IMG/VR virus record: IMGVR_UViG_3300029258_001393 | Span: 1 to 63,515 of that record | DNA: 63,515 nt | Reading direction: 5' to 3' (one strand) | From: a virus | Part shown: positions 1 to 14,521 of the stretch, in pieces | How positions within the stretch are numbered: the stretch's first letter is position 1 | Layout of the letters: the number at the start of each line of letters is the position of its first letter | Made by a program: the position numbers and the translations under genes | The notes under the pieces: generated by a model | The model's input: the letters and a program-made list of their open reading frames with translations, nothing else | Databases searched by the model: none | Told to the model about the DNA's origin: nothing

Positions 1-62
1 AATGCGGGTAAAATTGTTAAGAAAATCCGTGCTGTACGGTCTGCTGTCAAGAAAGGTGTGAA
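1..62. repeat. terminal direct repeat copy 1 (same as 63454-63515)
   Basis: 62/62 nt identity between the two window ends, read directly. Confidence 0.95.
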
Positions 63-8051: not shown

Positions 8052-8810
8052 TTAACTGCCTTGTTTTTCAATTAATACCGGATACTCGTCACGCTTGAAC
8101 AGTTTTAGTTGGTTTTCTCCTACTTCTACACTAAGAGAAACTCCATACTTGCTTAAATAAATGGGTCCCAAACCCTTCCTTTTGCGTTCTCTATTACAAC
8201 TATTTTCCAATATTTTTGCCTTGATAAATAATTTCGGATGGTCGTTTCTAAGGTTTCGCCAATCTGCATGGGTAGAGTTGAAACAAATATAACAAGCAGA
8301 TTTTGGAGGGATAGGGAATCCATGCCTTTTTATAATTCTTTTACATTCGGCCCTATCAATTCCAACTTCTATCAATGGGAATTTATCTTTAATCCCTTTA
8401 GAGGGTTTCCAGTTTTTAATCCTGTTTTTTTCTCCTGCATCAATGCCAATAAAATTTATACAGGGCTTTGAAAAATAATTTTCTTTTGGTTTAATCTTAA
8501 ATTTTTGTGAACAATCCCTATACATTCTTGAAGGTATGGTTTTTTTTGACAAATAAAAACTATACATTAAACCATTAAATTCTCTTTGTGCTGGGAATCC
8601 ATGTTCCATTGCATTAATAATAGTTATTGGTTGTTTGTTGTTTGTTTTTAAAAACTGATTCACTCTTTTTAAAAACTGATATGTTTCTGGTCTTTCACAT
8701 CCAGTATCGACAAAAACAGACTCAAATTTATATCCTTGATCTTTAAGGTAAAGTTGTAAAGCATAAGAATTAACCCCTCCACCATGACTAAGATATTTTT
8801 TCAATTCCAT
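8052..8810 (-). CDS. PAPS-reductase-family PP-loop ATP-pyrophosphatase (paralog 1)
   Basis: PP-loop SHGGGVNS, VFVDTGCERPETYQF, RDCSQKFKIKP, KSACYICF. No SD. In frame with the upstream MTase fragment across one TAG. Confidence 0.75.
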   Translation of the reverse strand: MELKKYLSHGGGVNSYALQLYLKDQGYKFESVFVDTGCERPETYQFLKRVNQFLKTNNKQPITIINAMEHGFPAQREFNGLMYSFYLSKKTIPSRMYRDCSQKFKIKPKENYFSKPCINFIGIDAGEKNRIKNWKPSKGIKDKFPLIEVGIDRAECKRIIKRHGFPIPPKSACYICFNSTHADWRNLRNDHPKLFIKAKILENSCNRERKRKGLGPIYLSKYGVSLSVEVGENQLKLFKRDEYPVLIEKQGS

Positions 8811-8825
8811 GTGGTTTCCATGTGG

Positions 8826-9344
8826 CTATTTGGTGGCTTTTTCCTGTAAATTTTCCACCCCATACCCAAAAATGTCATTATTATTTCTATTCGCATGAGC
8901 TTGTGTAAAGGTTGTCCCGTTTTGTTTCGCCTTTTGAACATCTCCCCTAATCTTTTGCCCAACAATCTCTCTTTCAACCCCTGCCGCCTTATCAATCGCC
9001 TTTGAAATATTATGCGATTTCGGAAATCCAGAACCATAAAGCCACATCATACAATCCCTGATTTCCCATCCTGCATCTTCAATGGCACACATTAATCTGT
9101 GGTGGGTACGGGTTCCACCAAAGGCTAAGAGAAATCCACCAGGCTTGATTATCCGAATGGCGTTTTTCCAAGTTTCAATTTGAAAAGCTACGCCGGAAGC
9201 ATCCCATTTCTTACCCATAAAGCCTAACTCATATGGTGGGTCAGTTATAATGCAAGTGAAATGATTGTCTGGAAACGATTTCATAACTTCGTTGCAATCA
9301 CCCTGATAAATTATTCCTTCTGACTGTTGGAAATACGGTCTAAT
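8826..9344 (-). CDS. N6/N4 DNA methyltransferase N-terminal half (motif IV DPPY only), probable ATT start
   Basis: IIYQGDCNEV-MKSFPDNHFTCIITDPPY...FGGTRTHHRL...GSGFPKS. No FxGxG AdoMet motif before TAG 8826-8828. The conserved IYQGDC lies upstream of the first ATG (9284). Confidence 0.65.
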   Translation of the reverse strand: MRPYFQQSEGIIYQGDCNEVMKSFPDNHFTCIITDPPYELGFMGKKWDASGVAFQIETWKNAIRIIKPGGFLLAFGGTRTHHRLMCAIEDAGWEIRDCMMWLYGSGFPKSHNISKAIDKAAGVEREIVGQKIRGDVQKAKQNGTTFTQAHANRNNNDIFGYGVENLQEKATK

Positions 9345-9552
9345 CTTTCCTCCCCCCTCCCATATGCGCCATCAATTTCCCGATCAACCATTTTAATGTT
9401 TATGAATTGTTTATTGACCCCTTTGCAGACCCTTGATATACGGGATGCAATGCGGGGGTTCAACCCGTCATTTCTTAGAACTTATCCATTAAATTTCAGT
9501 ATCTTATCTTGTTCAGATACCCCATTTTGGTTTATGAAAGGTTTATGAAGGA

Positions 9553-10203
9553 TTAATGCCATAATTTTAACTGCTTTGTTTCTTCTTCTTCTTTAAATGC
9601 AACCTCATCCATTTCTAAATATCTTTTATATAATTCTGAAAAATGCAACCTTAGTTTATCAATTCGTTTTTGACCTGCTTTGGGACAACAAAAACATGAC
9701 ACTCGACTAAAAACTTTATAAAGTCCATCCCAATCATACCCAAGAGAATAGCAATATTTTAGAGTGTCTTTTTCACTAAACCCGTATTCAATCAGCGGGA
9801 ATCTAACGGGCCATTTTCTATTAGTTATAGATGGTTGTTTTGTTCGGTGTGTCTCATCGGTTGTAAACCCGATACATTCAATCGTGCCTTTCAATGCCCT
9901 AAATATCTTTTTGCAATTATCTCTTTTTGAAGCAGCACACCATCCACCTTTTGAGTGAGGCCAACCATACCGAGCTAACAATTCACCAAAATGTCGATAG
10001 TTGCGAATCCGAATTGTTTTTATGCCAGTATTTTTTTCGACCTTCTGAATATGCGCTTCCATTTGGGGAAAATCCCATCCGGTTTCAAAATATATAACAT
10101 GGGAAATGGGTTCATTTTTTTCGATCATTAAATGAATCATGGCTGTTGAATCCTTGCCGAATGATGAACTAACAATTACACATTTTTTGCAATACGGTTT
10201 AAT
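9553..10203 (-). CDS. PAPS-reductase-family PP-loop ATP-pyrophosphatase (paralog 2), probable ATT start
   Basis: The PP-loop SFGKDS is encoded upstream of the first ATG (10140). YFETGWDFPQ, GFTTDETHR, SCFCCP. GGAGG sits 7 nt before ATT 10203. Confidence 0.75.
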   Translation of the reverse strand: MKPYCKKCVIVSSSFGKDSTAMIHLMIEKNEPISHVIYFETGWDFPQMEAHIQKVEKNTGIKTIRIRNYRHFGELLARYGWPHSKGGWCAASKRDNCKKIFRALKGTIECIGFTTDETHRTKQPSITNRKWPVRFPLIEYGFSEKDTLKYCYSLGYDWDGLYKVFSRVSCFCCPKAGQKRIDKLRLHFSELYKRYLEMDEVAFKEEEETKQLKLWH

Positions 10204-11246
10204 TCCACAACCTCCCCTGACAACTCTTTAATTTTCTCCGTAACCTTCAAAGCCCTTGCCTGCTTACCCTGAAAATACCTCTCAAACGCTGCTGAGACAT
10301 GCCCTGTTGCGTCTTTAACCTGTTCGGGGGTGCATATCCTACCCAAAGCCGTAACGGTGCTGTGGCGTGTTCCACCGTACAAATCAACCCCTTCAATGCC
10401 GAGGTTATGACAGGCACGTTTCCAGAATTTATAGAGATAACCTGGGCCGAATCTGGATCCGTTCTTTACTCCCTTACTATGGCAATGCCGAAAAAAGTAG
10501 AGATCGGGCATTGACGTAGGGAAAGTATTGAGGTGCTGTATATCTTCTTGTAAAAGGTAAATAATTTTGGGTGTTTTTTCCTTTGGATCGGGTATAAGAA
10601 TACCGCCCATCCCAAGACTAATTTGTTTTTCCCGTATGGATATAAGCTCCCCTGGACGCACAGAAACGTATGTTGAAAGAAACTTAATCCCGAGCCAAAT
10701 CTTGGGATTAATGCTATACGATATTTTCCGCACCTCACTAATAATGCTCTGTTGTGTTCCAACATCAATTATATTCCTCCATCCCAAAGTATAGGGCACT
10801 TCCGGTATATCCGGCATAGGGATTCTTTCACGCTTCGATACCCACTTAAAAAACTCTGACAGGCATATTTTGATATTGTGCCGGGTCTTGTCGGATATCC
10901 CTTCAATGCCATAAAGAAAGTCTTCAATCGTGCCAAAATTAATATCTTTGACGTTCTTCCCTTGCCATTTTCCAGCCGCCCTTGCCATGTAGTTCTTTAG
11001 GTTGCTGTAATATCGAGGTCGTACCTGTTTTTCTTTAACCTCAAGCCACTTCTTAGCCAGATTCTCAAAGCCAAGCGGATTGATTTTTTGCCAGTCTCTT
11101 GGGTCAAACGTGCCGTTGTCCGTTTGAACCCTAATGTAATTAAGAAACCTCTCAGCGTCTATTAAGTGCTTGAATGATTTGGTTAATTTACGACCAAACC
11201 GAACCTGATACCCACCCCTGTAATTTGGATATATTCGTCCTTTCAT
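10176..11246 (-). CDS. int: tyrosine recombinase (phage integrase)
   Basis: C-terminal catalytic signature LYGGTRHSTVTALG and ATGHVSAAFERYF. ATG 11246 has an AGGGGGGA SD. The longer track ORF is an unsupported extension. Confidence 0.85.
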   Translation of the reverse strand: MKGRIYPNYRGGYQVRFGRKLTKSFKHLIDAERFLNYIRVQTDNGTFDPRDWQKINPLGFENLAKKWLEVKEKQVRPRYYSNLKNYMARAAGKWQGKNVKDINFGTIEDFLYGIEGISDKTRHNIKICLSEFFKWVSKRERIPMPDIPEVPYTLGWRNIIDVGTQQSIISEVRKISYSINPKIWLGIKFLSTYVSVRPGELISIREKQISLGMGGILIPDPKEKTPKIIYLLQEDIQHLNTFPTSMPDLYFFRHCHSKGVKNGSRFGPGYLYKFWKRACHNLGIEGVDLYGGTRHSTVTALGRICTPEQVKDATGHVSAAFERYFQGKQARALKVTEKIKELSGEVVELNRIAKNV

Positions 11247-11283
11247 ACACAGATCCCCCCTTTGATTTGAGTCTAAGAGGGTA

Positions 11284-11526
11284 TCATATATCGTATTTGG
11301 GCGTGGTGTCAAATTTAGTCCTCTTCTTTTTATTTGCAAACCGACCAACCTCCCCAGTCAGCCGGCTTACAGTGCCGTCTTGCTCCCCTTTCTGTAAAAT
11401 CATCAACCCGGGCCTGTTATGGGTTAGGCGATAAGAAGGTTGATGCCCGCCTTTTCGAGGGGGCTTGGTATCAACTCGGCTTGCGATAGCGGTATCTCCG
11501 GCCATACCGTTAATTCGCAGGGTCAC
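11284..11526 (-). CDS. small basic protein upstream of int (possible directionality factor)
   Basis: GTG start overlaps the upstream stop (GTGA). Lys/Arg-rich. No recognisable HTH. Confidence 0.35.
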   Translation of the reverse strand: MTLRINGMAGDTAIASRVDTKPPRKGGHQPSYRLTHNRPGLMILQKGEQDGTVSRLTGEVGRFANKKKRTKFDTTPKYDI

Positions 11527-11716: not shown

Positions 11717-12574
11717 TTAGTTGAATAATTTTAACTGACGTGTTTCCTTTTCAATTCTCGGTATTCCTATATCGTCAATATAAACCCTGGATAGTTCAAT
11801 CATGATAAATTTTCGACTATACTTATGCGCTACGATTGCCGTTGTCATTGCCCCGCCGAAGGGGTCAAGTACAACCTTTCCTTTTGGACATCCGGCAAGG
11901 ATAGCTACTTCTGGCAACCTCGGCGGAAATGTGGCAAAATGCGCTTCAGAAAATCCCTTCGGGTTAATGTCCAGCCCCACAAGCTCATCATCGGCAAAGA
12001 TCGCCCCGAATGGCGGTTCAAGAGATTCAAAGAATAGGTCGGTGTTGCGGAAGTTGCGGCCCAAAGGATTGTATTCACGGTGTTTATCAAGTGATACTTT
12101 TCCACCAGACCAACCTTGATTATTCTGTCTCGGTCCAATTCCATCTTTACCCTTAAAACCGTTTGGCCTGTTTAAATCTTTATGCTTTACCCGTATCGCC
12201 TCCATATCAAAATAATATTTGGCCGATTTCGTAAGCAAAAAAACATACTCCAAGGCACTCGCCGGACGGTCCGAGCAACTTTCTGGCATGGCGGATTTTT
12301 TTACCCAGGGAATTCCAGACCGCAAATACCAACCATCGGCTTGAAGCGCAAGGGCTACACGCCAGGGGATTCCGCATAGGTCTTTGGGTTTGAGGCCCAT
12401 TGGAGCCTTTCTTGATTTTCCGCTTGCCTGACCCCTATTCCTAAAATTACCGCTTTTATCAACAGTATTCTCAACCTGTGGCCCTGCTTGACTTGCATAA
12501 CTATCGCCCATATTCAACCAAAGCGTTCCATCATCCCTCAACACCCTGCGGACCTCTCGGAAGATTTCAACCAT
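11717..12574 (-). CDS. N6/N4 DNA methyltransferase, C-terminal 285-codon ORF (motif I present; catalytic motif IV lies upstream of an in-frame TAG)
   Basis: DGTLWLNMGDSY, SGIPWVKK, HFATFP, VLDPFGGAMTTA. The frame continues upstream to GTG 12940 with a single TAG at 12815-12817. Confidence 0.85.
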   Translation of the reverse strand: MVEIFREVRRVLRDDGTLWLNMGDSYASQAGPQVENTVDKSGNFRNRGQASGKSRKAPMGLKPKDLCGIPWRVALALQADGWYLRSGIPWVKKSAMPESCSDRPASALEYVFLLTKSAKYYFDMEAIRVKHKDLNRPNGFKGKDGIGPRQNNQGWSGGKVSLDKHREYNPLGRNFRNTDLFFESLEPPFGAIFADDELVGLDINPKGFSEAHFATFPPRLPEVAILAGCPKGKVVLDPFGGAMTTAIVAHKYSRKFIMIELSRVYIDDIGIPRIEKETRQLKLFN

Positions 12575-12814
12575 GTGTTTAATAAATAATTCCGGTGTGG
12601 GTTCGAGTCCGAGACAACCACGCCATGCTCCGCAGAGTTGGCAGAATTGGGTTTTAACAAGTTCGCAATTTACTCCTTTGTTTGTTGCCTGCTTACTATT
12701 TTTGTTTTTTACATCATCGGGGTGCCGTTGCCGCCTTGGATCACATTCCCCCCAAACATGCTGACAATCTGAATCACCATCCCAAATTGTCGGCGGTAGG
12801 CCATAATCTCTCAG

Positions 12815-12940
12815 CTAAAGGCCCCAGTAGGGTGGGCTTGTGATTACACAATGCACACTCTCTGAGGCCATCTCCTTCAGCACGTCTAAAACATGCCCTT
12901 GATAAATCTTATTTCCGTCTTGTTGCCAGTATGTTTTCAC
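12815..12940 (-). CDS. N-terminal 41 codons of the same methyltransferase (contains SPPY), ending at the in-frame TAG
   Basis: GTG 12940 with an AGAGG SD. Translation is KTYWQQDGNKIYQGHVLDVLKEMASESVHCVITSPPYWGL-TAG. Confidence 0.6.
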   Translation of the reverse strand: MKTYWQQDGNKIYQGHVLDVLKEMASESVHCVITSPPYWGL

Positions 12941-12969
12941 TAATTTACCTCTATCCCGGTTCCGTTAAA

Positions 12970-14200: not shown

Positions 14201-14521
14201 TCAAGTGCGTCTTGAATATACTCTTGCCTGTCTTTCTGATTTAATCCACCTCAATCCATGTTCCTCCAAAATATGACAGCGGTAACACAAAATTCTTGTA
14301 TTCTCCTCAGAATCATCGCCACCACTTCCCCTTGACTTGATATGGGCTAAATGAGCCGTATTGAATACCGTGTCACCGTCTAATCTGACCCACCTACCGC
14401 ACTCAGCGCATAGGCCATGTTGTTTTTTCCAGACTTTTTTTCTAAGGTTAGAGTAAGCCCTACCTGTTAGCTTGATTCTCTTCTTTTTGGGCATTGGCTT
14501 TGGCGTGGTATAGGAGTGCAT
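14201..14521 (-). CDS. HNH endonuclease
   Basis: CAECGRW...HLAHIKSRGSGGDDSEENTRILCYRCH. Confidence 0.8.
   Translation of the reverse strand: MHSYTTPKPMPKKKRIKLTGRAYSNLRKKVWKKQHGLCAECGRWVRLDGDTVFNTAHLAHIKSRGSGGDDSEENTRILCYRCHILEEHGLRWIKSERQARVYSRRT

What the first reader, a model, noticed from the sequence alone, without database searches (positions are those of the whole stretch)
11717..12940. DNA methyltransferase interrupted by one in-frame TAG directly after the catalytic SPPY motif
The minus strand from GTG 12940 reads KTYWQQDGNKIYQGHVLDVLKEMASESVHCVITSPPYWGL, then TAG (12815-12817), then LRDYGLPPTIWDG...CQLCGAWRGCLGLEPTPELFIKH. It runs in the same frame into the 285-codon ORF that carries motif I (DPFGGAMTTA). 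As I recall this family, the sequence here is PPYWGLRDYG, so the locus looks like a 6-nt insertion (CTT TAG or TAG CTG) that delivers a stop. Under standard decoding only a 41-aa peptide and a catalytically dead C-terminal protein can be made. Possible explanations are a fresh pseudogene, an enzyme that depends on amber suppression or readthrough, or a host that decodes UAG (for example as Pyl).
Basis: partly seen in the sequence, partly recalled or inferred. Interest (0 to 1): 0.7.

Follow-up and report, generated by a model that had tools for sequence, protein, structure and literature searches.

The report
Stop-hop insert in phage DNA methylase
The stop codon inside this phage DNA-methylase gene is not decay but a conserved six-base insert, spread by a homing-endonuclease cassette, that ribosomes most likely hop over to make the normal enzyme; if confirmed, it would be the first natural case of a trick so far seen only in synthetic constructs.

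Summary
On the minus strand, GTG 12940 opens 41 codons ending SPPYWGL, followed by TAG (12815-12817). The same frame then runs 365 codons to TAA 11717. All 21 closest homologues read SPPYWG-L-RDYG, so the window carries exactly 6 extra bases.

The same Leu-stop-Leu insert occurs at this spot in 35 loci, forming 25 lineages with as little as 25-40% protein identity. All three stop codons are used, never a sense codon. The upstream codon is always CTT or TTR, and the downstream codon comes from the same codon box, or is UUY.

Related genes carry 5-nt, 7-nt and 1-nt inserts at the same place. These break the frame, yet a full methylase frame follows.

An HNH endonuclease gene lies directly upstream in 19 of 32 scorable interrupted loci and 0 of 108 intact ones. 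The cassette of HNH gene, 5' exon and insert has moved between divergent methylases, much like T4 mobA/gene 60.

Best explanation (about 0.6): a translational "stop-hop". Peptidyl-tRNA-Leu leaves CUU, skips UAG and re-pairs on CUG, giving the wild-type motif. The insert probably protects the gene from the endonuclease. The window is an endonuclease-less allele. The hop itself is inferred, not shown.

The parts
11717..12940 (-). Complete beta-class N4/N6 DNA methyltransferase gene (407 codons plus final stop), including the 6-nt insert
   Evidence: (PF01555 spans residues 29-390)
12948..12952 (-). Shine-Dalgarno-like AGAGG, 7 nt upstream of the GTG start
   Evidence: Sequence. The GTG start aligns with the N-termini of homologues
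12818..12940 (-). [quoted passage not shown]
12827..12838 (-). Catalytic motif IV, SPPY
12821..12826 (-). Trp-Gly codons TGG GGC. They form an SD-like UGGGG and encode the nascent-peptide WG immediately 5' of the take-off codon
   Evidence: Sequence. The parallel with the WG/SD element at the Streptomyces phage Hau3 bypass comes from PMC5009743. A functional role here is inferred
12818..12820 (-). Proposed take-off codon CTT (Leu41)
   Evidence: CTT in 19 of 19 CUN-type lineages, against 24% of CUN codons at this position in intact homologues
12815..12817 (-). In-frame TAG, proposed to sit in the A site as a slow-to-decode codon during the hop
   Evidence: Always a stop (TAG, TAA or TGA) in relatives
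12812..12814 (-). Proposed landing codon CTG. It is re-paired by the peptidyl-tRNA and not decoded as an amino acid
   Evidence: The landing codon is always from the same box as the take-off codon, or UUY. Two lineages have Phe codons here although Leu is invariant in the family
11720..12811 (-). Resume segment: 364 codons from AGA (Arg) to the last sense codon, carrying the target-recognition region and the AdoMet-binding motif
11840..11869 (-). Motif I region, LDPFGGAMTT (AdoMet binding)
12813..12876 (-). Predicted 5' hairpin whose 3' arm is the take-off region (GGCCUCAG pairs with CUGGGGCC). Its significance is uncertain
   Evidence: z = -3.1. It is strong only in the window's sub-clade, 9 of 24 lineages. 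No register-conserved consensus structure was found

Best explanation
The TAG belongs to a 6-nt insert (stop codon plus a second Leu codon) placed directly after the catalytic SPPYWG codons of a phage beta-class DNA methyltransferase. The insert is the signature of a mobile cassette made of an HNH homing-endonuclease gene, a replacement copy of the methylase 5' end, and the insert. This cassette invades methylase genes at the DNA that encodes the conserved catalytic motif. The insert probably breaks the endonuclease's target site, so carriers are immune to cutting. The window is an allele that keeps the insert but has no endonuclease gene. The enzyme is still made because a fraction of ribosomes perform a 'stop-hop': with peptidyl-tRNA-Leu on CUU in the P site and the slow-to-decode UAG in the A site, the tRNA lets go, the mRNA slides 6 nt, the tRNA re-pairs on CUG, and decoding resumes at AGA. 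Nine nucleotides then specify one Leu, and the product has exactly the wild-type motif SPPYWGLRDYG. Ribosomes that terminate instead release a 41-aa peptide. Shown: the insert, its conservation and codon rules, the endonuclease linkage and the cassette mosaicism. Inferred: the hop itself, its efficiency, and the immunity function.
For: (1) All 21 closest homologues have a single Leu where the window has Leu-stop-Leu. (2) A degenerate scan found the same configuration in 35 loci, comprising 31 unique sequences, 25 clusters at 90% identity and 21 at 70%, with pairwise identity down to 25-40%. (3) The middle codon is always a stop (by locus TAG 19, TAA 12, TGA 4). TGG, which the pattern allowed, never occurs. 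With any middle codon allowed, IMG/VR returns only the same loci, and 185,579 species' genomes return only one chance hit. (4) The take-off codon is CTT in 19 of 19 CUN-type lineages, but only 16 of 66 CUN codons at this position in intact homologues are CTT. The neighbouring Gly codon and the third base of the landing codon vary freely. (5) Take-off and landing codons are never from different boxes. CUU pairs with CUN or UUY, and UUR pairs with UUG. UUY can pair with anticodon GAG through a G.U pair, as in the prfB CUU-to-UUU shift (my own knowledge). In two lineages the landing codon is Phe, although Leu is invariant in the family. (6) Frame-breaking inserts occur at the same spot with intact resume frames: CTT|TAATC|AGG (410 codons), TGG|TGAATGC|GGT (442), TGG|TAAATGA|GCC (336) and TAC|TGATTAG|TGG (220). 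Each starts with a stop, and each has a landing triplet sharing at least 2 of 3 bases with the take-off codon. (7) One HNH family (PF01844) ends 86-122 nt upstream of the site in 19 of 32 scorable interrupted loci and 0 of 108 intact loci, Fisher p = 2.5e-15. When the search was anchored on the HNH gene instead, every evaluable adjacent methylase was interrupted within 0-3 codons of SPPY(W). (8) L021 and L035 are 85-100% identical from the HNH gene to about 30 nt past the site and 30-45% identical beyond it. L019 and L025 differ only in having or lacking the HNH gene. [quoted passage not shown] MobA (HNH) plus the gene 60 bypass insert is a mobile cassette whose insert blocks MobA nicking and is kept after endonuclease loss (bioRxiv 10.1101/2022.08.31.505936).
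Against: There are no protein or activity data, so the hop is inferred from sequence alone. Synthetic stop-hops without stimulators are low-level, so the yield may be small. Because the cassette moves horizontally, the low dN/dS downstream of the stop (0.09-0.35) may largely predate insertion. Close pairs that share the cassette give pN/pS of only 0.35-0.5 with p = 0.05-0.15. The large metagenome census was anchored on a YTN-TRR-YTN pattern, so drifted inserts would have been missed there. The less biased tests rest on few IMG/VR lineages. No RNA stimulator is conserved across lineages. Identical codons also flank the leaky stop of TMV, where the mechanism proved to be readthrough (PMC2754532). 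The window itself has no endonuclease gene, and two relatives (L012, L030) look degraded.
Confidence: 0.6

Rival explanations
1. The selfish cassette simply kills the methylase. The insert exists only to break the endonuclease target, the stop ends translation, and the downstream frames look intact only because invasions are recent. The window gene is then a dead remnant.
For: Cassette mosaicism shows recent horizontal spread, so downstream conservation need not reflect selection after insertion. Close-pair pN/pS is not significantly below 1. L012 and L030 are degraded. The window region also holds other truncated genes.
Against: A target-breaking insert has no need to begin with a stop, to duplicate the Leu codon, or to keep take-off and landing triplets matched. 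Yet all 5-, 6- and 7-nt inserts begin with a stop, and their landing triplets share at least 2 of 3 bases with the take-off codon, across cassettes whose HNH proteins are only about 50-70% identical. The stop changes identity (TAG, TAA, TGA) without ever becoming sense. Endonuclease-less lineages such as the window and L003 have fully diverged 5' exons (dS about 1.9) and still keep 365-424 open codons.
Confidence: 0.17
2. Ordinary stop-codon readthrough by a near-cognate tRNA yields a methylase with two extra residues (Leu-X-Leu) that remains active, and the stop merely keeps expression low.
For: The frame is preserved in the 6-nt class, and TAG followed by C is a relatively weak terminator in E. 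coli (my own knowledge). TMV shows that matched flanking codons can coexist with readthrough.
Against: The insert lies inside an invariant 11-residue block, with no length variation in 21 plus 120 homologues. Sense Leu-X-Leu versions are never seen, although they would give more protein. Two lineages would replace the invariant Leu with Phe. Readthrough cannot explain why the extra sense codon is always Leu from the matching box, and it cannot rescue the 5-nt, 7-nt and 1-nt inserts at the same site. The UUR-type sites have T after the stop, a strong termination context in E. coli.
Confidence: 0.08
3. Termination followed by re-initiation gives a split enzyme. Ribosomes stop at TAG and restart at the adjacent CUG or UUG, helped by the SD-like UGGGG 7 nt upstream. 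The 41-aa fragment and the C-terminal fragment then assemble.
For: The spacing of GGGG to the codon after the stop suits an SD-start pair (sequence). In 14 of 25 lineages the codon after the stop is CUG or UUG. Split proteins that reassemble are known for endonuclease-split phage genes, such as gp39/gp60 and NrdA.
Against: In 11 of 25 lineages the codon is CUA, CUU, CUC, UUU or UUC, which are not start codons. In L004 the nearby AUG is out of frame. The split would fall inside the catalytic loop, and there are none of the added tails seen in known split cases.
Confidence: 0.07
4. The stop is decoded as sense because of genetic-code reassignment, pyrrolysine, or a suppressor tRNA from the phage or its host.
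For: In-frame TAG is the hallmark of such systems. The host is unknown.
Against: The complete genome (62-bp terminal repeat) encodes no tRNA. About 10 of 68 ORFs end in TAG, followed by RBS-ATG of separate genes such as portal and major head. Relatives use TGA and TAA at the same site, and the same stop type ends ordinary genes in those loci.
Confidence: 0.02
5. A fresh, one-off inactivating mutation (an ordinary pseudogene) or a sequencing artefact.
For: No uninterrupted allele closer than about 58-65% identity exists in the protein database.
Against: Three assemblies with SNP differences share the insert, and 25 diverged lineages carry the same configuration.
Confidence: 0.02

Closest known systems
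Synthetic 'stop-hops' in E. coli (Weiss, Dunn, Atkins & Gesteland 1987, as described in PMC5009743)
   Same: Matched codons flank a stop codon, and 9 nt specify one amino acid. Peptidyl-tRNA leaves its codon and re-pairs on a matching, non-overlapping codon while a slow stop codon occupies the A site. As I recall it, the synthetic site was CUU UAG CUA, which is exactly the site in L005, L006, L010 and L018. That sequence was not found in the searchable library (0 occurrences).
   Different: Those were artificial constructs with low efficiency. The 2016 review states that no natural occurrences are known. Here the configuration is natural, conserved across about 25 lineages, sits in a catalytic motif and is linked to a mobile element. 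The product has not been verified.
Phage T4 gene 60 translational bypass with the MobA homing-endonuclease cassette (Bonocora et al. 2011; bioRxiv 10.1101/2022.08.31.505936)
   Same: An HNH-family endonuclease, a replacement copy of the adjacent coding segment and a bypass insert travel together as one mobile element. The insert lies a few tens of nt from the insertion point in a highly conserved coding region. There is a stop codon immediately 3' of the take-off codon, and take-off and landing codons match. Some genomes lose the endonuclease but keep the insert. Some relatives are also split, with conserved added tails.
   Different: The gene is different (a DNA methyltransferase, not topoisomerase II), and so is the HNH family. 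The gap is 6 nt (also 5, 7 or 1 nt) instead of 50 (20 in one clade). The take-off codon is Leu CUU or UUR (also Trp or Tyr) instead of Gly GGA. No take-off stem-loop or known nascent-peptide signal is demonstrated. The endonuclease sits upstream of the whole methylase rather than splitting it at that site. Neither nicking specificity nor bypass has been tested.
Streptomyces phage Hau3 terminase short bypass (10-nt inserts; PMC10732093, PMC5009743)
   Same: A short-distance bypass in a phage gene. Trp-Gly codons (UGG GGN, SD-like, nascent WG) lie immediately 5' of the slow-to-decode codon. The flanking protein sequence is invariant in relatives without the insert.
   Different: In Hau3 the slow codon is the rare UUA, a proposed sensor of host growth phase. 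The inserts are 10 nt and frame-breaking. No endonuclease linkage is described.
prfB (RF2) programmed +1 frameshift, CUU UGA C with an upstream SD-like element (my own knowledge)
   Same: The 'shifty stop' has the same elements: tRNA-Leu on CUU in the P site, a stop in the A site, and a G-rich SD-like sequence just upstream. tRNA-Leu(GAG) re-pairs on UUU, which may explain the UUY landing codons seen here.
   Different: prfB shifts by +1 onto an overlapping codon and is autoregulatory. Here a +1 shift gives an immediate stop (AGC TGA), so only a +6 move restores the protein.

Membership tests
Beta-class N4/N6 amino DNA methyltransferase (Pfam N6_N4_Mtase, PF01555) | Significant match to the family profile over the whole domain | tested here: met
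   129 bits against a cut-off of 26.7, profile positions 1-218 of 221, spanning the stop
Beta-class N4/N6 amino DNA methyltransferase (Pfam N6_N4_Mtase, PF01555) | Motif IV ((S/D)PP(Y/F)) lies N-terminal to motif I (FxGxG), the beta-class order | tested here: met
   SPPY at residues 35-38 and DPFGGAMTT at 359-367. The nearest solved relatives are TTHA0409, CcrM, N4C methyltransferases and M.PvuII
Beta-class N4/N6 amino DNA methyltransferase (Pfam N6_N4_Mtase, PF01555) | Methyltransferase activity and target base (N4-C or N6-A) | not testable with these tools
   SPPY suggests N4-cytosine by analogy with M.PvuII and TTHA0409, but this is only an inference
In-frame stop-hop (short translational bypass) | Matching codons immediately flank a stop codon | tested here: met
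   CTT TAG CTG in the window. Same-box pairs, or UUY landing codons, in 25 of 25 lineages
In-frame stop-hop (short translational bypass) | The nine nucleotides correspond to a single amino acid in the protein family | tested here: met
   There is a single invariant Leu in 21 of 21 close homologues and in 120 intact IMG/VR homologues (the latter were retrieved with a pattern that required exactly this, so they add little independent support). The NNN-middle scans found no Leu-X-Leu sense variant at this site
In-frame stop-hop (short translational bypass) | The product lacks the residues that readthrough would add (junction peptide) | not testable with these tools
   Needs mass spectrometry of the expressed junction
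In-frame stop-hop (short translational bypass) | Output depends on the stop and on the take-off/landing match | tested here: inconclusive
   Comparative evidence only: a stop is always kept, the take-off codon is fixed as CTT or UUR, and frame-breaking variants have matched landing triplets. There is no mutational test
Homing-endonuclease plus bypass-insert mobile cassette (T4 mobA/gene 60 type) | Endonuclease gene physically linked to the insert | tested here: not met
   The window has no cassette-family HNH gene and no 5'-exon remnant. The feature is met in relatives: 19 of 32 scorable interrupted loci against 0 of 108 intact loci. The window is therefore filed as an endonuclease-less derivative, a state also known for T4 relatives
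Homing-endonuclease plus bypass-insert mobile cassette (T4 mobA/gene 60 type) | Horizontal transfer of the cassette with a junction next to the insert | tested here: met
   Relatives only: the L021/L035 identity profile, the L019/L025 pair with and without the HNH gene, and duplicated 5' exons fused to the HNH ORF
Homing-endonuclease plus bypass-insert mobile cassette (T4 mobA/gene 60 type) | The endonuclease cuts insert-less targets and the insert confers immunity | not testable with these tools
   Needs a biochemical or co-infection assay
Homing-endonuclease plus bypass-insert mobile cassette (T4 mobA/gene 60 type) | Take-off stem-loop and nascent-peptide stimulators as in gene 60 | tested here: inconclusive
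   A 5' hairpin is present only in the window's sub-clade, and there is no conserved consensus structure. The nascent PPYWG is conserved because it is the catalytic motif
Stop-codon reassignment, Pyl or suppressor-dependent decoding | Many in-frame occurrences of one stop codon, a suppressor tRNA or pyl genes, and that codon avoided as a terminator | tested here: not met
   No tRNA. TAG ends about 10 of 68 ORFs, with RBS-ATG of separate genes following. All three stops are used at the site in relatives
Pseudogene | Loss of constraint: further frameshifts or stops, loss of invariant residues, and no conservation of the lesion | tested here: not met
   The window keeps every column that is invariant in the alignment, and 365 codons stay open. 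The lesion itself is conserved across 25 lineages. Caveat: constraint after insertion is only weakly shown

The most novel reading that the evidence does not exclude
This is the first natural example of in-frame 'stop-hopping', and the second known homing-endonuclease-borne translational-bypass cassette after T4 mobA/gene 60. It arose independently in phage DNA methyltransferase genes. It belongs to a whole series of minimal recoding inserts (1, 5, 6 and 7 nt: +1 shifts and +5, +6 and +7 hops) placed right after the catalytic SPPY(W) codons. These let a selfish element alter the DNA of an invariant motif without altering the protein.
Probability: 0.55. Interest if true: 0.92.

Novelty: new variant of a known kind. 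Interest (0 to 1): 0.85.

Why it matters
Short hops over a stop codon have been known from synthetic constructs since 1987. The field's own 2016 review says no natural case is known, and the gene 60 cassette was still called unique in 2022.

If confirmed, this locus and its roughly 25 sister lineages would provide several things:
- A natural, evolutionarily tuned set of minimal bypass sites with built-in variation (three stops, two Leu codon boxes, and inserts of 1, 5, 6 and 7 nt). This set could be used to work out the rules of peptidyl-tRNA take-off and landing.
- A second, independent case in which a homing endonuclease carries a recoding insert as self-immunity. That would turn a curiosity into a general strategy: hiding a DNA insertion from the protein.
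- A practical warning for annotation. Gene callers truncate these methylases (the database holds only the 275-aa C-terminal fragment), so functional phage anti-restriction enzymes are being filed as fragments or pseudogenes.

Tried and rejected
- **Genome-wide TAG recoding.** Several TAG-terminated ORFs are followed by same-frame ORFs, which looked suspicious. TAA-terminated genes show the same tendency (8 of 15). Each downstream ORF has its own RBS and ATG and matches its own PHROG family end to end. Rejected.
- **Second methylase as a second readthrough case.** The fragment at 8826-9284 ends in TAG, but the in-frame continuation is a different protein, PAPS-reductase-like. Rejected.
- **Search for an uninterrupted allele of the window's own gene.** IMG/VR and JGI metagenomes were scanned with an exact flanking pattern and found neither allele.
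- **Related isolates and host.** The best TerL match to any sequenced phage is 28% or less, no paper mentions the sample accessions, and the host remains unknown.
- **dN/dS as proof of translation.** Ratios between divergent interrupted genes were low, but cassette mosaicism means the divergence may predate insertion. Close pairs were underpowered.
- **Conserved RNA stimulator.** A strong 5' hairpin exists only in the window's sub-clade. RNAalifold finds no common structure, and Rfam finds nothing in four related loci.
- **A bug.** The first neighbour analysis had a regex error that dropped all wild-type sequences. It was redone.
- **Literature.** Searches for prior reports of recoding or endonuclease cassettes in methylase genes found nothing relevant.
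Full report
**1. Observation**

On the minus strand, a GTG at 12940, preceded by AGAGG, opens 41 codons ending ...ITSPPYWGL. TAG follows at 12815-12817. The same frame then continues LRDYGLPPTIWDG... for 365 more codons to TAA at 11717-11719. The joined product matches Pfam N6_N4_Mtase end to end, profile positions 1-218 of 221, E 2.6e-37.

Its nearest solved relatives are beta-class amino-methyltransferases: TTHA0409, CcrM, N4-cytosine methyltransferases and M.PvuII. Aligned with 21 full-length homologues of 50-65% identity, every homologue reads SPPYWG--LRDYG. The window therefore has exactly two extra codons inside an invariant block.

Two independent assemblies (Logan SRR6963479 and ENA ERZ27256778) contain the identical 1224-nt gene with the TAG. 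They differ from the window at 9 SNPs elsewhere.

**2. Not code reassignment or suppression**

- The window has a 62-bp terminal direct repeat, so it is a complete circular assembly, and it encodes no tRNA.
- About 10 of 68 ORFs end in TAG, and long ORFs of 2955 and 1451 aa are intact under the standard code.
- TAG-terminated genes are followed by an RBS and ATG of separate genes that match their own families. Examples are portal followed by an 85-aa protein, and a 262-aa ORF followed by the major head protein. TAA-terminated genes show the same same-frame tendency.

**3. Not a fresh pseudogene**

While checking homologues that appeared N-terminally short, I found P0048 on L003. It is about 67% identical, comes from another sample, and reads SPPYWGL*LRDYG with CTT TGA CTG. 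The stop differs from the window's, but the Leu codons are the same. P0044 on L004 has a 7-nt insert at the same spot.

A degenerate scan (TAYTGGGGN YTN TRR YTN MGN GAYTAYGG) found 4 loci in IMG/VR, 27 in JGI metagenomes and none in 185,579 reference genomes. Together with the window, L001, L002 and L003 this makes 35 loci. They comprise 31 unique sequences, 25 clusters at 90% identity and 21 at 70%, with pairwise identity as low as 25-40%. Most complete loci keep 320-531 open codons after the stop.

**4. Codon rules at the site**

- **Middle codon.** It is always a stop. By locus the counts are TAG 19, TAA 12 and TGA 4. By lineage they are 12, 9 and 4. TGG was allowed by the pattern and never occurs. 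With any middle codon allowed, IMG/VR returns only the same four loci, and the genome collection returns one chance hit outside any methylase.
- **Upstream codon.** It is CTT in all 19 CUN-type lineages, and TTA or TTG in the other 6.
- **Downstream codon.** It is CTG (8 lineages), CTA (3), CTT (4), CTC (2), TTT (1) or TTC (1) after CTT, and TTG (6) after TTR. The two codon boxes are never mixed.
- **Control.** In 120 uninterrupted IMG/VR homologues, the single Leu uses all six codons: TTG 38, CTG 26, CTC 17, TTA 16, CTT 16, CTA 7. In GC-matched loci TTR makes up 29 of 40.
- **Free variation nearby.** The adjacent Gly codon and the third base of the landing codon vary freely.
- **Other stops in the same loci.** The stop type used at the site also ends ordinary genes in the same loci.

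**5. What the rules mean**

[quoted passage not shown] 1987). A hop from CUU over UAG to CUG, resuming at AGA, gives exactly SPPYWGLRDYG.

Only under a hop is a stop better than a sense codon. A sense codon would be decoded and would insert two residues into the catalytic loop. A slow stop gives the peptidyl-tRNA time to re-pair.

The two Phe landing codons fit a hop and do not fit readthrough. The landing codon is not decoded, and UUY can pair with anticodon GAG through a G.U pair, as in the prfB CUU-to-UUU shift (my own knowledge).

The Trp-Gly codons immediately upstream form an SD-like UGGGG and encode a nascent WG. The review notes the same element at the Streptomyces phage Hau3 bypass. 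Whether it acts here is inference.

**6. Frame-breaking variants**

Less biased scans, and a search anchored on the endonuclease, revealed inserts that readthrough cannot rescue. Each is followed by a full methylase frame:

| Locus | Site | Insert | Resume frame |
|---|---|---|---|
| L169 / L176 | CTT\|TAATC\|AGG | 5 nt | 410 codons |
| L004 | TGG\|TGAATGC\|GGT | 7 nt | 442 codons |
| L178 | TGG\|TAAATGA\|GCC | 7 nt | 336 codons |
| L181 / L182 | TAC\|TGATTAG\|TGG | 7 nt | 220 codons, then a second split |
| L185-L187 | TAC TTT C\|GGA | 1 nt, UUU_C slippery site before CGG | 291-305 codons |
| L188 | TAT T\|GAC | 1 nt, creating UAU_UGA_C | 229 codons |

Every 5-nt and 7-nt insert begins with a stop directly after the take-off codon. 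Its last triplet shares at least 2 of 3 bases with that codon: UGG with UGC or UGA, UAC with UAG, and CUU with AUC.

**7. The endonuclease cassette**

Immediately upstream of many interrupted methylases lies one family of roughly 190-aa HNH endonuclease (Pfam PF01844).

- **Linkage.** A profile of this family hits the same strand, ending 86-122 nt before the site, in 19 of 32 interrupted loci that have at least 700 nt of upstream sequence. That is 14 of 24 lineages. It hits none of 108 comparable uninterrupted loci, Fisher p = 2.5e-15.
- **Duplicated 5' exon.** In L018, L020, L005/6 and L025 the HNH ORF is fused to a remnant of the recipient's methylase N-terminus. The cassette therefore carries its own copy of the 5' exon.
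- **Mosaicism.** L021 and L035 are 85-100% identical from the HNH gene to about 30 nt beyond the site, and only 30-45% identical after that.
- **With/without pair.** L019 and L025 are 99.8% identical from the methylase RBS onward but unrelated upstream, and only L025 has the HNH gene.
- **Search anchored on the HNH gene.** It returned 13 loci. Every evaluable adjacent methylase was interrupted within 0-3 codons of SPPY(W). None was intact, and none had a sense insertion.

This matches the T4 mobA/gene 60 system. [quoted passage not shown]

The window has no cassette HNH gene or exon remnant. Its small HNH ORF at 14201-14521 is unrelated to the cassette family. The window is best read as an endonuclease-less, insert-bearing allele.

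**8. Caveats**

- The hop is inferred. There are no protein or activity data.
- Synthetic stop-hops are low-level.
- Horizontal movement of the cassette undermines my first dN/dS argument (0.09-0.35 downstream), because that divergence may predate invasion. Close pairs sharing the cassette give pN/pS of 0.35-0.5 with p = 0.05-0.15.
- The large metagenome census was pattern-anchored. The less biased tests rest on a handful of IMG/VR lineages.
- No RNA stimulator is conserved across lineages. A strong 5' hairpin (z = -3.1) is confined to the window's sub-clade.
- TMV's CAA UAG CAA proved to be readthrough, not a hop.
- L012 and L030 look degraded.
- Interrupted and intact genes are interleaved among nearest neighbours, which implies several gains or losses.

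**9. Novelty**

The 2016 review states that no natural stop-hops are known. A 2024 preprint still treats them as a low-level synthetic phenomenon. The 2022 preprint calls the gene 60 cassette unique. Searches for methylase recoding or endonuclease cassettes found nothing relevant. I rate this a new variant of a known kind. The mechanism class (translational bypass linked to a homing endonuclease) is known. The gene, the endonuclease family, the minimal 6-nt in-frame form and the series of insert sizes are new.

**10. Verdict**

| Explanation | Confidence |
|---|---|
| Homing-cassette immunity insert decoded by a CUU-UAG-CUG stop-hop | about 0.6 |
| Cassette-inflicted inactivation (dead gene) | 0.17 |
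| Readthrough | 0.08 |
| Re-initiation giving a split enzyme | 0.07 |
| Reassignment or suppression | 0.02 |
| One-off pseudogene or artefact | 0.02 |

Interest: 0.85.

Noticed in passing
window 1-62 and 63454-63515: There is an exact 62-bp terminal direct repeat, so the window is a complete circularly assembled phage genome of about 63.45 kb. Its large terminase is at most 28% identical to that of any sequenced phage.
   Followed up: partly
window 10962-11064 (inside the integrase-like ORF 10176-11348, minus strand): All 9 differences between the window and the two other assemblies (L001, L002) fall within about 100 bp of the integrase-like gene. The remaining 10-13 kb is identical. This is a local hypervariable or recombination patch. 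The changes are not adenine-specific, so it does not look like a DGR.
   Followed up: no
window 8052-10140, minus strand: This is a module of apparently truncated DNA-modification genes. A second methylase (8826-9284, DPPY) covers only profile positions 3-90 of 221 and ends in TAG. A PAPS-reductase-like ORF (8052-8810) follows it in frame. Another PAPS_reduct ORF (9553-10140) lacks the N-terminal P-loop.
   Followed up: partly
window 11723-11737, the C-terminus of ORF 9553-10140, and near the C-terminus of ORF 8052-8810: Three different DNA-modification proteins carry QLKLF or QLKLW at or near their C-termini (ETRQLKLFN, ETKQLKLWH, GENQLKLFKRDEY...). The methylase family consensus also ends in ...QLKLF. 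This resembles the bacterial beta-clamp-binding pentapeptide QL[SD]LF, which I recall from memory and did not test. It may tether these enzymes to the replication clamp.
   Followed up: no
L007 2660-2890; L035 (reverse complement) about 2145-2827; L181; L183: Relatives of the methylase are additionally split at a second site, after LGLEPTP. The upstream part gains a conserved tail (LRDDLT.KE.EYV...L...G.I). L035 has an HNH ORF inside the gap, and in L183 an HNH gene precedes the LGLEP segment. This parallels the added tails of MobA- and MobE-split genes.
   Followed up: partly
L185-L187 (TAC TTT C|GGA TTG AGA GAC) and L188 (TAT T|GAC GAT): These are single-nucleotide inserts right after the PPY codons in HNH-adjacent methylases. 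They create a UUU_C slippery site before a CGG codon, or a UAU_UGA_C shifty stop. Both look like candidate programmed +1 frameshift sites, and both are followed by intact resume frames of 229-305 codons.
   Followed up: partly
window 12813-12876, minus strand: A predicted hairpin pairs GGCCUCAG (Met-Ala-Ser-Glu codons) with CUGGGGCC (Tyr-Trp-Gly-Leu codons), z = -3.1. Equivalent strong pairing occurs in 9 of 24 lineages, all in the window's sub-clade, with apparent compensatory changes in L018 and L023. The register is not conserved.
   Followed up: partly
window 14201-14521, minus strand: This small HNH endonuclease ORF (106 aa, PF01844) lies three genes upstream of the methylase. It is not a member of the cassette HNH family (tblastn E of 0.2 or weaker).
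   Followed up: partly
L014 (oriented) 2-673: The 3' remnant of the cassette HNH gene is fused in frame to the C-terminus of a different upstream methylase (HPTVKP...DPFAGSGTT). This shows decay of the endonuclease while the stop insert is retained.
   Followed up: no
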